This document shows, one piece after another, positions 38,430-43,250 of a stretch of DNA of 64,000 nt. Source of the DNA: an uncultured Clostridia bacterium (GTDB lineage Bacteria > Bacillota > Clostridia > TANB77 > CAG-508); the NCBI GenBank assembly GCA_904387305.1, contig CAJFLB010000002.1, forward strand, positions 14,761 through 78,760, in the 5' to 3' direction. Numbering within the stretch: position 1 is the stretch's first letter; the number at the start of each line of letters is the position of its first letter. The notes under the pieces were generated by a model, which saw nothing but the letters and a program-made list of their open reading frames with translations, was not told the DNA's origin and made no database searches. A program made the translations under genes and the position numbers.

Positions 38430-41400
38430 TAAAATGAATTAAATAAATAATTAAAAAAAGTAATTAATAAAATATATAGTAAAAATATAAATAATTAATT
38501 AAAATTAAATAATTAATAAAAAAAATAAATTTTATAAACATTAATTAAATAGAATAAAAATTAACAATTTATTTTTTATATAATTTTATTATAAAAGTAA
38601 TAATTAAAAATAAAAATATAAAAAAAATAAATATTATAAAAATAAATAAATTTTTAAATAGAAATAAATATAAAAAATAAAAGGAAAAAATGATTAAATA
38701 AGAATTATAAAAAATAAAAGATAAACTAAAAAATATTTTTATAGTAGAAAATATTAACTAAAAAATTAGGTAAAAAGTTTATTGAAAAAATTAAAAAGTG
38801 CTTAAAAATCTAAAAGAAAAAATACTTAAAACACTATAAATTTAAGGAATTTATAAAAAATAGAAAGAATAGTTAATATGATTTAAAAGTAAACATAATT
38901 ATAAAATAATAATATAAAAAATTTTATTAAAATTATCAGTAAAATAAATATTATAAAAATAAAATATGATAGAGAATATAAAAAAATGTAAATAAAAAAT
39001 AATTAATAAAATATTTTTGAAATTAAAAATAAATTAATTAATTTTAGAAAAAGTATTATAAAAAAATAAAAACGATAATTATAAAAAATAAATAAAAATT
39101 ATTAAAAATAAAAATTAAATTATAAATAAAAAATAATTTTATTAAAAATAAAAAAATTAAAATTAGTTAAATAAAAATTATAAAAAAATAAATAATAATA
39201 AAAAATTAAATATATAATTAAAAATTTAAATAAATAATAAAAAAAATAGATTAGAAAATAATACAATTAATAATATAAAAGAAATAATTAAAAAAGGAGA
39301 ATATAAAAAATAAAAATAGCAAGTGTATAATGATTTAAAAGTTTACCAAAAAAGAATAAAAGAGTTTTGAGAAAAAGAGAAAACTAAAATAATATAAGCT
39401 AAAATGTTTCTGCTTTCAAAGAAAATGTGAAAATAATAAGTATATTAATTTTGATAAAATAGTAAACATAATCAAAAAGTAAAGATCGTAAAAAAGTTTT
39501 GAAAATTGAAAATAAGTATATAAATGAATATTTAAAAATTAAGAAAATTAGAAATGTGTAAAAATATAAAAATAATCTTAAAAAGAAATTAATAAAAAAT
39601 TTAATATAAAACAATTTAATTTTCTTAAAAAATTATTAAAAAAAATAAATAATAAAAGATAATTATAAAAAAAGATATTAAAAATTAGAAATAAAATAAA
39701 TAATTAAAAATAAATTAAATAATAAAATAATTAATATAAAAAATAAATTATTAAAAATAAAAATAATTTAAAGAATAGTTAAAATAAAAAATAATAAGAA
39801 AGTTAGATATATAATAAAAAAATTTTAAATTTAAAATTAATAATAAAAATATTATTAAAAATAATATTTTAAAATAAATAATTGAAGAATAAAAAAAGAA
39901 AAAAATCTTTTATATATAAATAAAAAGATATGAATTTTAATTAAAAGATAAGATTATGATTTAAAAGTTTACAAAATAAAGAATAAAAGATTTTGTAAAA
40001 AGGGAAAAGCTAAAATAATATAAGCTCAAAAGCCTATTCTTTCAAAGAAAATTTGAAAATAATAAGCATATTAATTTTGATAAAATAGTAAACATAATTT
40101 AAAATAAAAATAATAAATAAAGTTTTGAAAATTGAAAATAAGTATATAAATAAACAATTAAAGAATCAAGATAATTAGAAATGTATAAAAATATAAAAAT
40201 AATCTTAAAAAGAAATTAATAAAAAAATTATTATAAAACAATTTAATTCTCTAAAAAAAAAATAAATAATGAAAAGATAATTATATAAAAAAACATTAAA
40301 AATAAAAAATAATAAAAAAATAAAATATAAATTCATAAAAAATAATAATATTAAAAAACTATAATAAAATAAATAATTATATAAAATAAATTATTAAAAA
40401 ATATAATTATAAAAATTAAAAAAATAAAATATAAAATTATAATAAAATAAGAAATAATTATTATAAATATTAAATAAAAAAATTATCAAAAATAAAAAAT
40501 TAAAAATTGTAAATAAAATTAATTAAAATAAAAAATTTAAAATAATAAATAAAATTAATTAAAATAAAAAATAAATAGAATTAAAAATATAAAATAATAA
40601 TTTTAAATATAAATATAAGTAATAAAATTAATACAAATTAAAAACAAAAAATTGACAATAAAAATAGCATATAAAAATATTTAATTCGATAATAAAATTA
40701 AAGTAAATAAACAAATAATCTATTTTATCAGAATTGTAAAAGTAAAAAATTTAATAAAAGAAGGACGAATTAAAAGATTACAGAAGACAAAGTGATTAAA
40801 TTTGTAAAAATTTAAAAAATAGTAGAAAAATATAATAACTTTGGCTAGAAATCAACTATTCTAGTAAATACTAGAAAAATGTAAAGATAAAAAGTATATA
40901 AATTAACACAAAAAAGTCAACATAATACAAAAATAAAATCTAAAATAGAAATAAATAAAGGAATGATGTAAAAATAAAATATAATAAATAAAATCTTAAA
41001 ATAAGAAAAAGGAATTAATTAAAAATTTTTAAAATAAAAAATAAATCAATTAATTTAATTAAAAAAATTTTATAAAAATAATAATAAAATATAATTTATA
41101 AAAAATAGTAATATTAAAAAAATATATAAAAAATAAATATTTGTATAAAATAAATTATAAAAAAATATAATTATAATAATTAAAAAAATAAAATATAAAT
41201 TAATAAAATAAAAAAATAATTATTATAATATTAATAAAAAAATAATAATAATTAAATATAATGAAAAAAATAACTATAAAAAAAATGATAATTAAAAATT
41301 AAATATTAAATATGTAATTAAAATTGTAAATTAATAATAAAAGATAATACATTAAAATAGTAGATAATTTATTATAGAAATAAAATAGAAAAAACAAAAA

Positions 41401-43250
41401 TAGAAGAAGAAATAACAAGATAAAAATTTAATTAATAAATAAAATGGCAATTTAAAAGTTTACCAGAAAAAAATGAAAAGTTTTAATAAAAAGAAAAAAA
41501 TAAAATAATATTAAATGAAAAGTTCGATTATTTCAAGGAATTAAAAAAATAATAAGTAGAGTAATCCTATATAAAACAGTAAACATAATATAAAAATAAA
41601 AGATTCTAGGTAAGAATAAAAATAGGTATAAAAATAAATTTTTTATAGCTCAATATGATTGAAAATGTTAAAAAAATCCAAATAAAATATTAAGTAAAAA
41701 AAGAAATTAATAATAAATTTTAAAATAAGAAATAAAACAATTTATTTAAAAAATATGTTAAAAAATAATAATATAAAATATTTATAAAAAATAAAATAAA
41801 TATTAAATAAAAATATAAAATTATAAAAAATAAATAATAATATAAAATATTAATAAAAAATAAAATAGTAAAAAAATAAATCAAATAATAATCAGAATAA
41901 AAAATAATTATTATAAAATTATTAAATAAAAATAATAACTAACAATGAATTAATATAAATTTAAAATAATAAAAAAATAAATTAAAATTATAAAATAATT
42001 TATTAAAAGAATTAAAGAAATAGATCAAAAAAAGAAAAAAATGCTTATAAAAAAATAAAATTGATAAATAAAATGATGATTTAAAAGTTTACCAGTAAAA
42101 AGAAAACTCTTTAATAAAAAAATATCATAAAACTGAAAATCTTTGTATTCCAATAGTTTTTTAAAATCAATAAATATTATAACTTTTAAAAAAAGTAAAC
42201 ATAATCTAAAAATAAATATTATAAAAGCTTGCTTAAAAAGAGAAAATATGTAATTAAATAAAAAATGAATATAAGTAAAAATATTAAAAAGATATAAATA
42301 AAATATTAACTTCAAAAAGAAATTAATAAAAATTTGGAAATAAAAATAAATCATTTTAATAAAAAATTACAAAAGATAATTATAAAAAACTAAAAATAAT
42401 AAAATAAATAATAATAAATATTTATAAAAAATAAATTATAAAAAATAACTTATAAAAATATAAAATTGCAAAAAAATATAAATATGAAATTATAAAAAAA
42501 TAAAAATATAAAATTAATAAAAATAAAATTAAAATAATAAAAAATAATTATTATAAAAATATTAAATAAAAATAATAGTAAATTAATATGGAATTAAAAA
42601 TAATAAATAAATTCAAAAGTAACATATTAAAATATTAATTAATTTAATAGTAAAAAAATAAATTAAAGAGAAAATAAATTTTGGTAAAAAAGAAAAATGT
42701 TAAAATAAAAATCAAATAAAAAAGAAAGATTCAAAAGTTTACAGAAAATAGAAGATTAAAAAATATAAGAATTAAGAAAAAGCATAAAATTATAATTATT
42801 TCTACATTAAAATTACACATTTTAATAGAAAATAAGGATAATTAATATATTAATTTTTATTTAAAAATAGTATACATAATGAAAAATAAAGATTTTAAAA
42901 AATTGATAAAAATATAAAAAATAACTCAAATCATATTTTAATATAAAATCTATTATAATTAAAAAAAGTTTTATAAAAATAAATAATATATAAATATGAA
43001 AAAAATTTTAAAAAAACAAATCACGAAAATCAAAAATAAGACGATTTAATTTTTTTTTAATATAAAATATTTATAAAAATTAAATTATATAAAAAATTGT
43101 TAAATAAAAAAATATAATAAATAATAAAAAATAAATTATGGAAATATAAATAATTAAAAAATTATAAATTTAATTTATTAAATATTAATAAAAAAATTAA
43201 ATTTATAAATTAATAAAAAATAATATAAAAATAAAATAATAAAAACAATA
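38430..43250. repeat. About 4.8 kb of ~90-95% A+T, A-skewed non-coding DNA organised as a degenerate ~630-750-bp periodic repeat. Each unit has a ~140-bp core bounded by GATTTAAAAGTTTACC and AGTAAACATAAT.
   Basis: Core copies at 39332..39472, 39958..40098, ~40765..40925 (degenerate), 41449..41592, 42078..42206 and 42727..42880. No plus-strand ORF. A related 60-bp element at 43021..43070. Confidence 0.75.

What the first reader, a model, noticed from the sequence alone, without database searches (positions are those of the whole stretch)
38430..43250. 4.8 kb of ~93% A+T, A-skewed DNA built from a ~630-bp periodic repeat with conserved ~140-bp cores
Six units start at 39332, 39958, ~40765, 41449, 42078 and 42727. 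Each begins GATTTAAAAGTTTACC and, ~130 bp later, has TTGATAAAATAGTAAACATAAT. The hexamers GTTTAC and GTAAAC are inverted repeats. Conserved internal blocks include ATAATATAAGCTAAAA, TTTCAAAGAAAAT and ATAATAAGTATATTAATTTTGATAAAATAGTAAACATAAT. The ~140-bp cores retain G/C positions while the inter-core DNA is almost pure A/T. The plus strand is strongly A over T, as expected for a sense strand of AT-biased coding DNA or a mutationally relaxed ex-coding region. This is not CRISPR, not rRNA and not coding: no plus-strand ORF. Candidates are a decayed tandem array of a small gene or sRNA, an array of ~140-bp MITE-like elements with short inverted ends, or a nucleoid-organising or replication-related structural domain close to oriC.
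Basis: seen in the sequence. Interest (0 to 1): 0.8.

Follow-up and report, generated by a model that had tools for sequence, protein, structure and literature searches.

The report
Decayed tandem copies of a gene tail
The AT-rich stretch is a fast-changing, non-coding tandem array left by repeated partial duplication of the end of the neighbouring ParA-like gene; only a few short DNA boxes are still conserved, and they look like protein-binding sites of unknown purpose.

Summary
Window 38430-43250 is 91.5% A+T and A-skewed, has no plus-strand ORF of 37 aa or more, and holds seven (not six) head-to-tail units of 626-809 bp. It lies about 11 kb right of oriC, between a degenerate ParA/MinD-like gene (K352, 37371-38429) and a conserved gene of unknown function (p245), in a gene order shared by dozens of related uncultured gut Clostridia. 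Species without an array have K352 abutting p245. Others carry 1-5 kb arrays at this junction, in separate clades. In relatives such as L065, L038 and L061 the units are recognisable stop-ridden partial copies of the K352 3' end. Each carries an L-box (TTAGGCATTAA, codons L-G-I) and an S-box (AGTTTACATA, codons S-L-H-I), 66 or 55 nt apart. In the window's own clade the parent gene has lost these motifs, yet array units keep L and S exactly 65 nt apart while the sequence between them is randomised. That argues for selection on a bipartite DNA element. The window's units keep only the S-box (AGTAAACATAAT) and an upstream box (AAAAGTTTAC). No Rfam hit, stable fold or covariation was found, so it is not an sRNA array, MITE, CRISPR or oriC. 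Unit number differs between near-identical strains, and one close relative has no array.

The parts
38430..43250 (+). Whole non-coding AT-rich tandem array (7 units), between the K352 stop codon and p245
   Evidence: collinear in the independent assemblies L001, L147 and L148
37371..38429 (+). K352, the parent gene family of the units: a receiver-like N-terminus plus a degenerate ParA/MinD-type domain. In this clade the Walker A, LGI and SLHI motifs are lost.
   Evidence: Pfam CbiA/AAA_31/Response_reg hits in homologs, none in the window copy; motif survey
38773..38899 (+). Unit 0 core: degenerate B1 (AAAAGTTTAT) and S-box at 38888-38899
39332..39472 (+). Unit 1 core: B1 at 39332-39346, L-box remnant TAAGCTAAAA at 39395, S-box at 39461-39472
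39958..40098 (+). Unit 2 core: B1 at 39958-39972, L-box remnant at 40021, S-box at 40087-40098
40767..40926 (+). Unit 3 core: B1 variant GAATTAAAAGATTAC, L-box remnant TTGGCTAGAAA at 40841, S-box variant AGTCAACATAAT
41449..41589 (+). Unit 4 core (B1 and S-box). This unit is absent from strain L147.
42078..42205 (+). Unit 5 core (B1 and S-box)
42728..42880 (+). Unit 6 core (B1 and S-box variant AGTATACATAAT)
43028..43080 (+). Conserved promoter-like motif AAAATCAAAAATAAGACGATTT...TTTAATATAAAAT, about 200 nt upstream of p245. The same motif lies upstream of recF in nearly all relatives.
43269..43988 (+). p245: conserved all-helical protein of unknown function. The true start is probably ATG 43269 (RBS GAGGAG; homologs are 239 aa).

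Best explanation
The region is a non-coding, copy-number-variable tandem array. It arose by serial partial duplication (unequal recombination or slippage) of the 3' end of the upstream ParA/MinD/CpaE-like gene K352 plus its downstream spacer. AT-biased mutation and slippage have since degraded it to about 91% A+T.

The ~140-bp 'cores' are what remains of the ex-coding part. The ~500-bp inter-core DNA is filler.

What survives in each unit is a short box module. The S-box (window: AGTAAACATAAT; ancestrally AGTTTACATA, the S-L-H-I codons) and the upstream box B1 (AAAAGTTTAC) are kept. The third element, the L-box (ancestrally TTAGGCATTAA, the L-G-I codons), has nearly decayed in this strain.

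Across the clade the L-box, the S-box and their 65-66-nt spacing are kept by purifying selection in non-coding copies. I infer that they act at the DNA level as a bipartite protein-binding site, of operator/promoter type or centromere type, tied to the K352-p245 module.

Shown: the origin of the array, its dynamics, its non-coding state, the absence of RNA structure, and the conservation of the boxes. Inferred: that the boxes bind protein, and which protein.

In the window strain the module looks like a decaying relic. K352 has lost its ATPase motifs and the L-boxes are gone.
For: Conserved gene order. gyrB, VirB4N, VirB4C, K352, [gap], p245, gyrA is shared across the 80 fetched loci (of 199 confirmed relatives). 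The gap from the VirB4C end to the p245 start ranges from 1.0 kb (K352 only, abutting p245) to 5.9 kb.

Recurrent arrays. Arrays occur in several separate clades interleaved with array-less species.

Origin visible in relatives. In L065 and L038 the units are partial K352 3' copies (reading L038's box flanks; L038 has no array ORF of 40 aa or more). Of 24 non-parent copies, 20 carry in-frame stops.

Fixed spacing. The L-to-S spacing is 66 nt in 45 cases and 53-56 nt in 20 cases.

Selection in the window's clade. The parent gene lacks Walker A, LGI and SLHI. Array units in 6 species nevertheless keep an L-box homolog 64-65 nt upstream of the S-box. Between-species identity is 0.73 for the L-box and 0.77 for the S-box. 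It is 0.49 for the interior, equal to the composition expectation of 0.47.

Between strains. Comparing the window with L001, box 2 and the bases that follow it are unchanged and box 1 shows a few changes (GATTAC/GTTTAC in u3, GATTC/GATTT in u6). The core interiors change.

Dynamics. Strain L147, with flanks 99.7% identical, lacks exactly one unit. L153-155 have no array.

No RNA signal. There is no Rfam hit, no fold stability in most cores and no covariation.
Against: In the window itself the link to K352 is not statistically detectable. tblastn with 35 K352 homologs and two nhmmer profiles found nothing significant beyond weak S-box hits. The derivation therefore rests on box identity, position, orientation and the chain of relatives.

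The array is dispensable in a close relative (L153), which weakens any claim of an important function.

No binding protein, transcript or phenotype is known.

Within single species the boxes are only 0.1-0.2 more conserved than their flanks.

The 55-nt and 66-nt spacing classes may trace to few events.
Confidence: 0.62

Rival explanations
1. Purely neutral junk. It is a minisatellite-like pseudogene array with no functional element at all. The boxes look conserved only because of recent common descent, repeated re-derivation from the parent gene, or homogenisation among units.
For: Unit number changes between near-identical strains. The array is absent in L153-155. The copies are stop-ridden. 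Window cores evolve faster than the spacers between strains. Within-species box conservation is only modestly above the flanks.
Against: In the window's clade the parent gene no longer has the boxes, so re-derivation is impossible. Even so, the L-box, the S-box and the 65-nt spacing persist across 6 species while the interior is fully randomised.
Confidence: 0.2
2. Each unit is an activator-dependent promoter or a small transcription unit. The S-box would be the -10 region and the L-box an upstream activator site about 66 bp away. The units would fire rightward, producing unstructured RNAs or boosting p245 expression.
For: The S-box always contains a -10-like hexamer (CATAAT, TATAAT, TATAGT). 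The L-S spacing comes in two classes 11 bp apart, 66 and 55, as expected for face-of-helix activation. All units are co-oriented with p245. In L019 and L027 the last box lies 38-46 nt upstream of the p245 start.
Against: There is no conserved -35. Promoter-like hits do not exceed shuffles, 74 against 67±7. No terminators were found. The distance from the last box to p245 varies from 38 to about 850 nt. A separate conserved promoter-like motif already sits upstream of p245 and recF. The organism's own promoters are canonical TTGACA/TATAAT.
Confidence: 0.12
3. Mobile-element origin. The units would be MITE/IS-derived or Xer-mobilised (dif-module-like) cassettes inserted site-specifically.
For: The S-box AGTTTACATAA is the exact reverse complement of the XerD arm of B. 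subtilis dif (PMC3025954). The L-box contains CTAGG, as the XerC arm does. In L038 the same unit family also fills the dnaN-recF and VirB4N-VirB4C gaps. The boxes show a strong strand bias, 180:37.
Against: No second arm lies 6-8 bp from the S-box. L and S are in the wrong order and 55-66 bp apart. Both boxes are ordinary codons of the parent gene. There are no TIRs, and no hairpins beyond the 6-bp GTTTAC/GTAAAC pair; target-site duplications were not looked for. No copies occur elsewhere in the 64-kb window. Nothing matched in viral or metagenome pattern scans.
Confidence: 0.04
4. The units are silent donor cassettes for gene conversion into the variable L-S segment of K352, in the manner of pilS, vls or MgPa.
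For: The copies are promoterless partial copies of the adjacent gene. They are arranged in tandem, separated by AT-rich spacers, and have conserved boxes flanking a hypervariable 66-nt segment.
Against: Of 24 copies, 20 have in-frame stops. The 55- and 65-nt variants break the reading frame. The parent is a cytoplasmic ATPase-like protein. In the window's clade the parent lacks the boxes needed as recombination anchors.
Confidence: 0.02

Closest known systems
Bacterial minisatellites / VNTR tandem repeats formed by unequal recombination
   Same: Head-to-tail units. Unit gain and loss between near-identical strains. Rapid turnover. Short-read assemblies break in the array.
   Different: The units are unusually long (630-810 bp). 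They derive from a gene fragment, and they carry short boxes conserved across species while the rest is randomised.
Silent partial-gene cassette arrays (Neisseria pilS, Borrelia vls, Mycoplasma genitalium MgPa repeats); comparison from general knowledge
   Same: Tandem, promoterless partial copies of a neighbouring gene, with AT-rich spacers and conserved boxes flanking variable segments.
   Different: The copies are full of stops and frame changes. The parent is not a surface antigen. There is no sign of conversion into the parent gene.
Plasmid and phage centromeres next to ParA-type ATPase genes (F sopC 12x43 bp, R1 parC iterons, P1 parS with box A/box B and fixed geometry); comparison from general knowledge
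   Same: Repeated short boxes beside a ParA/MinD-type gene. A bipartite site with fixed spacing. Variable repeat number. An origin-proximal position.
   Different: The boxes are 600-800 bp apart rather than tightly packed. No ParB-like partner has been identified. The ATPase is degenerate in this clade. Binding is untested.
dif / Xer recombination site
   Same: The ancestral S-box is an 11/11 match to the reverse complement of the B. subtilis XerD arm.
   Different: There is no second arm or central region. The array is multi-copy and lies at the origin rather than the terminus. The motif is explained by the codons S-L-H-I.
Neisseria NIMEs / E. coli BIMEs (intergenic mosaic repeat arrays); comparison from general knowledge
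   Same: Intergenic arrays in which short conserved boxes alternate with variable segments.
   Different: There are no palindromic units. The array is confined to origin-proximal gaps of one locus, and the units are derived from a gene.

Membership tests
Tandem repeat / VNTR | Head-to-tail units in one orientation | tested here: met
   Seven co-oriented cores spaced 626-809 bp apart
Tandem repeat / VNTR | Copy-number polymorphism among close strains | tested here: met
   L147 lacks one unit with 99.7% identical flanks. The left part of the array is rearranged in L001. L153 has no array.
Pseudogene-fragment array derived from K352 | Detectable sequence homology of the units to the parent gene | tested here: inconclusive
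   Clear in relatives. In the window only the S-box and weak L remnants link the units to the parent; tblastn and nhmmer are not significant.
Pseudogene-fragment array derived from K352 | Adjacent to and co-oriented with the parent gene, at the same junction in relatives | tested here: met
Structured small-RNA gene array | Match to a known RNA family | tested here: not met
   Rfam at gathering threshold finds only tRNAs elsewhere in the window
Structured small-RNA gene array | Thermodynamically stable, conserved structure with covariation | tested here: not met
   z-scores range from -0.9 to +0.1 on the + strand. RNAalifold gives -0.73 kcal/mol and 0 compensatory pairs.
Structured small-RNA gene array | Own promoter and terminator for each unit | tested here: not met
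   Promoter-like hits equal the shuffles; 0 terminators
MITE | Terminal inverted repeats maintained across copies | tested here: not met
   Only 6 bp. Broken in u3 and u6 without compensation, and replaced by ATTAAC or ATCAAC in L150.
MITE | Dispersed copies at unrelated loci | tested here: not met
   The only box matches outside the array are isolated single hits at about the chance-expected number. In L038 the other copies are further tandem arrays in neighbouring origin-proximal gaps.
CRISPR array | Repeats of 25-40 bp separated by unique spacers of 25-70 bp | tested here: not met
   Period of 626-809 bp, with spacers that are homologous low-complexity DNA
dif / Xer site | Two 11-bp arms around a 6-8 bp central region | tested here: not met
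   Only an arm resembling the XerD arm is present. There is no information content downstream of the S-box across 179 instances.
oriC / DnaA-box cluster (datA-like) | Clustered DnaA boxes | tested here: not met
   DnaA boxes cluster at 27069-27279, 28612-28911 and 30132-30872. None lies in 38430-43250.
ParABS centromere | Canonical parS (TGTTNCACGTGNAACA) | tested here: not met
   0 matches in the window with up to 3 mismatches
Plasmid-type centromere / operator array | Repeated boxes conserved under selection next to a ParA-type gene | tested here: met
   This is a resemblance in working principle only.
Plasmid-type centromere / operator array | Specific binding by a partner protein | not testable with these tools
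   p245 has no Pfam family, no PDB relative and a poor AF2 model

The most novel reading that the evidence does not exclude
The B1-L-S box module is a functional, copy-number-variable cis-element array. It would be a centromere-like or positioning site, or an activator-dependent control region. It was exapted from the coding sequence of the ParA/MinD-like gene K352. It would serve a domesticated gene set near the origin, related to type IV secretion: split VirB4, K352, p245 and a nearby TraD-like coupling protein, conserved in a large clade of uncultured gut Clostridia. The element would be amplified or lost as a way of tuning that system.
Probability: 0.2. Interest if true: 0.75.

Novelty: new variant of a known kind. 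Interest (0 to 1): 0.45.

Why it matters
It shows how a stretch of apparently featureless AT-rich DNA can be traced to its origin. That origin is serial partial duplication of a gene tail at one junction, recurring in several clades of abundant uncultured gut Clostridia.

It identifies a short bipartite DNA element whose boxes and 65-66-nt spacing survive complete randomisation of the sequence between them. That makes the element a concrete candidate binding site, testable by DAP-seq, EMSA or TSS mapping.

It points to an unstudied conserved VirB4/ParA-like/p245 locus beside oriC.

It explains why short-read MAGs of this clade break at this locus.

It is not a new kind of RNA or defence system.

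Tried and rejected
RNA tests. Rfam found nothing in the array. Single-sequence folds on both strands gave z of about 0 for most cores, with two minus-strand cores at -2.3. RNAalifold on 12 cores from 3 genomes found only the 6-bp GTTTAC/GTAAAC pair and no covariation.

Promoter and terminator scan. It gave no more hits than shuffles.

Homology searches against the window. tblastn of 35 K352 homologs against the array gave a best E-value of 0.15. An nhmmer profile of K352 3' regions found nothing. An nhmmer profile of the window cores found only the same-species locus L001. An L-S profile built from the window's own clade (the species nearest the window by VirB4 identity, 89-99%) hit only the window's S-boxes weakly.

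Pattern scans. Two viral-contig scans and one metagenome-contig scan gave only isolated chance hits and no arrays.

p245. It has 4911 homologs without name or Pfam family and no PDB relative. AF2 gave pLDDT 45, so no fold search was run.

Known sites. parS and DnaA boxes are absent from the array.

dif idea. The S-box equals the XerD arm, but there is no second arm.

Helical phasing of the B1-to-S spacing in the window's clade. The first 19 spacings gave R = 0.62 at an 11-nt period. Further arrays gave a continuous 135-145 nt range. I treat this as inconclusive.

Co-occurrence of the neighbouring XRE regulator with arrays. L061, L037 and L027 have arrays without XRE, so it is not an obligate partner.

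Motif resemblances recalled from memory (sigma E/K/G -10, Spo0A box, RTP Ter, IHF, attC core sites, IS608 TTAC). None fitted spacing or context, and none was pursued.
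Full report
**What is there**

The window comes from a genome of about 27% GC. The GC skew switches sign at about 27 kb, next to dnaA. On the + strand the gene order is:
- dnaA 27302-28654
- dnaN 28977-30095
- recF 30851-31945
- gyrB 31958-33886
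- a TrsD-like VirB4 N-terminal fragment, 34962-35540
- a VirB4-like ATPase, 35660-37378 (NCBIfam CD1110 family, 4e-86)
- a K/I/N-rich 352-aa ORF, 37371-38429, here called K352
- the AT-rich stretch
- a 239/245-aa ORF, here called p245 (43251 or 43269 to 43988)
- an XRE regulator on the minus strand
- a 96-aa ORF
- gyrA 45161-47620

Region 38430-43250 is 91.5% A+T, with AT skew +0.35. The cores have 16.9% GC and the rest 6.6%.

- AAAAGTTTAC occurs 5 times against 0.7 expected.
- AGTAAACATAAT with at most 1 mismatch occurs 7 times in the array.
- All are on the + strand.

There are seven units, not six. Unit lengths are 626-809 bp. Apart from the recent pair u1/u2 (79% identity), whole units are barely more alike than shuffled sequence, 61-69% against 56%. 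The repeat signal therefore lies in the cores.

**It is not an RNA gene, MITE, CRISPR array or origin**

- Rfam finds nothing in the array.
- Most cores fold no better than shuffles on either strand; two minus-strand cores reach z of about -2.3.
- An alignment of 12 cores from three genomes yields only the 6-bp GTTTAC/GTAAAC pair. The consensus energy is -0.73 kcal/mol. There are no compensatory changes, and the pairs are broken in u3 and u6.
- Relatives replace GTAAAC with ATTAAC or ATCAAC. The 'inverted repeat' is therefore incidental.
- Promoter-like hits equal the shuffled expectation, and no terminators were found.
- DnaA boxes cluster around dnaA, dnaN and recF but are absent from the array.
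- No parS is present.

**Context in relatives**

The VirB4-like protein has relatives of 75-99% identity among 199 confirmed genome hits, of which the 80 best loci were fetched. All are uncultured gut Clostridia, including Clostridium sp. CAG:343.

The order gyrB, VirB4N, VirB4C, K352, p245, gyrA is conserved. K352 homologs have a receiver-like N-terminus and a ParA/MinD-type P-loop domain (Pfam CbiA and AAA_31 above threshold). The window copy matches nothing.

The distance from the VirB4C end to the p245 start ranges from 1.0 to 5.9 kb. In the shortest cases K352 ends about 25 nt before p245. The AT-rich DNA is therefore an expansion at this one junction.

On a VirB4 tree, species with arrays and species without them are interleaved in several clades. 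Many contigs end just inside the array.

**Origin of the units**

In L065 the array consists of four 730-800-bp partial copies of the K352 3' end, still readable as '...LGIKDIEENIEIEKADKQNNNSSLHIIYNKYYFNS...'. L038 is similar, although its units are more decayed.

In more than 25 species every unit carries the 9-mer GTTTACATA, the S-box, which encodes S-L-H-I in K352. Usually TTAGGCATTAA, the L-box encoding L-G-I, lies upstream of it.

The L-to-S spacing is exactly 66 nt in 45 cases and 53-56 nt in 20 cases. Of 24 non-parent copies, 20 have in-frame stops. They are pseudogene fragments, not cassettes that could be expressed.

In L038 the same unit family also fills the dnaN-recF and VirB4N-VirB4C gaps, with 72-74% identity over 1-1.5 kb.

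**The window's own clade**

Below, 'the window's own clade' means the species nearest the window by VirB4 identity (89-99%).

All 12 K352 proteins in this clade lack Walker A, LGI and SLHI. The arrays nevertheless keep three elements:
- box B1 (TTTAAAAGTTTAC);
- an L-box homolog (CTAGGTAA / CTACGTAAT...AAAG) about 79 nt downstream of B1;
- the S-box (AGTAAACATAA, followed by AAAAATAAA) exactly 64-65 nt after the L-box.

This arrangement holds in six species.

Between species, identity is 0.73 for the L-box and 0.77 for the S-box. For the 50-nt interior it is 0.49, which equals the composition expectation of 0.47.

The spacing is fixed and the boxes are conserved around a fully randomised interior. 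This holds in slippage-prone A-rich DNA whose parent gene no longer carries the motifs. I read it as purifying selection on a bipartite DNA element. Its nature is inferred, not shown.

**State of the window's array**

The S-box is intact in 7 units and B1 in 6. The L-box is reduced to TAAGCT remnants (u1 and u2, 67 nt upstream of the S-box), to TTGGCT (u3, 75 nt), or is gone. A profile of the clade's L-S module hits only the window's S-boxes, and weakly.

Between the window and L001 (genes 98-99.7% identical), units u3-u6 are collinear. Box 2 and the bases after it are unchanged, and box 1 shows a few changes. Core interiors differ by 3-9%, and the spacers differ mainly by ~70-nt indels. The left part of the array is rearranged.

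Strain L147 lacks exactly unit 4. A relative assembled from long reads has only a 333-nt pure-AT gap. The array is therefore dynamic and dispensable. In this strain it looks like a decaying relic.

**Function**

I could not identify the binding partner or a transcript. The S-box has no conserved -35 and no second dif arm. The ancestral S-box does equal the reverse complement of the B. subtilis XerD arm (PMC3025954), but I attribute that to its codon origin.

A separate, widely conserved promoter-like motif lies upstream of recF and p245. This lowers the need for the S-box to act as the p245 promoter.

p245 belongs to a family of more than 4900 unannotated proteins. Its AF2 model is unusable.

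**Verdict**

This is a new variant of a known kind of feature: a tandem pseudogene-fragment minisatellite that retains a selected bipartite box. Interest is moderate. The conserved boxes and the unstudied VirB4/ParA-like/p245 locus beside oriC are the parts worth following up.

Noticed in passing
window 34962-37378 and 51357-52931(-); L001-L080: A split VirB4-like conjugation ATPase lies between gyrB and gyrA: a TrsD-like N-terminal ORF plus a 572-aa ATPase. It is conserved at 75-99% identity among the 199 confirmed relatives, all uncultured gut Clostridia. A TraD/VirD4-like coupling-protein homolog lies about 14 kb downstream. The set looks like domesticated genes related to type IV secretion rather than an ICE remnant.
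   Followed up: partly
window 37371-38429: K352 belongs to a receiver-plus-ParA/MinD (CpaE/TadZ-like) family. It has lost Walker A, LGI and SLHI throughout the window's own clade (the species nearest the window by VirB4 identity). The ORF is nevertheless kept, at 338-385 aa. It may be a pseudo-enzyme or a slowly dying gene. Its nucleotide identity to L001 is 95%, against 99% for VirB4.
   Followed up: partly
window 30599-30650, 30704-30755, 43028-43080; about 5000-5600 in most loci: The motif AAAATCAAAAATAAGCCGATTTTATTTTTTAATAATATAATTT is highly conserved. It has an A/T-only 8-bp stem and a perfect TATAAT. It occurs once or twice upstream of recF in nearly all relatives, upstream of p245 here, and inside array units of L003 and L065. 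It is probably a promoter or a terminator-promoter module.
   Followed up: partly
window 34358-34893: A second AT-rich expansion lies between gyrB and the VirB4 N-fragment. It holds about 40 copies of the 12-bp unit AATTAAAAAAAT (TRF score 479), and its GC content is about 13%.
   Followed up: no
window 30095-30851: The 750-bp dnaN-recF gap has 13% GC and carries 10-bp A-tract repeats. DnaA boxes flank it on both sides (30132, 30155, 30841, 30864). It may be part of oriC or its unwinding element, in addition to the box clusters at 27069-27279 and 28612-28911.
   Followed up: partly
window 17866-19509(-) and the whole window: Canonical Soj (ParA) and Spo0J (ParB) genes are present. No canonical parS site was found anywhere in the 64-kb origin-proximal window, even with 3 mismatches allowed.
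   Followed up: partly
window 43251-43988: The true start of p245 is probably ATG 43269, which has the RBS GAGGAG and matches the 239-aa length of homologs. The family has more than 4900 members, no Pfam domain, no PDB relative and an all-helical prediction.
   Followed up: partly
L038 1100-4122 and 8364-9887; L037 likewise: In some relatives the same L-S unit family forms further tandem arrays, in the dnaN-recF gap and between the two VirB4 ORFs. All are co-oriented with replication and with the genes.
   Followed up: partly
L150 9718-13005: Some members of the window's clade carry extra genes between the XRE regulator and gyrA: a 449-aa ORF and a 432-aa AAA_14/DUF4143 ATPase. The gyrB-gyrA interval is therefore a hotspot for insertions.
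   Followed up: no
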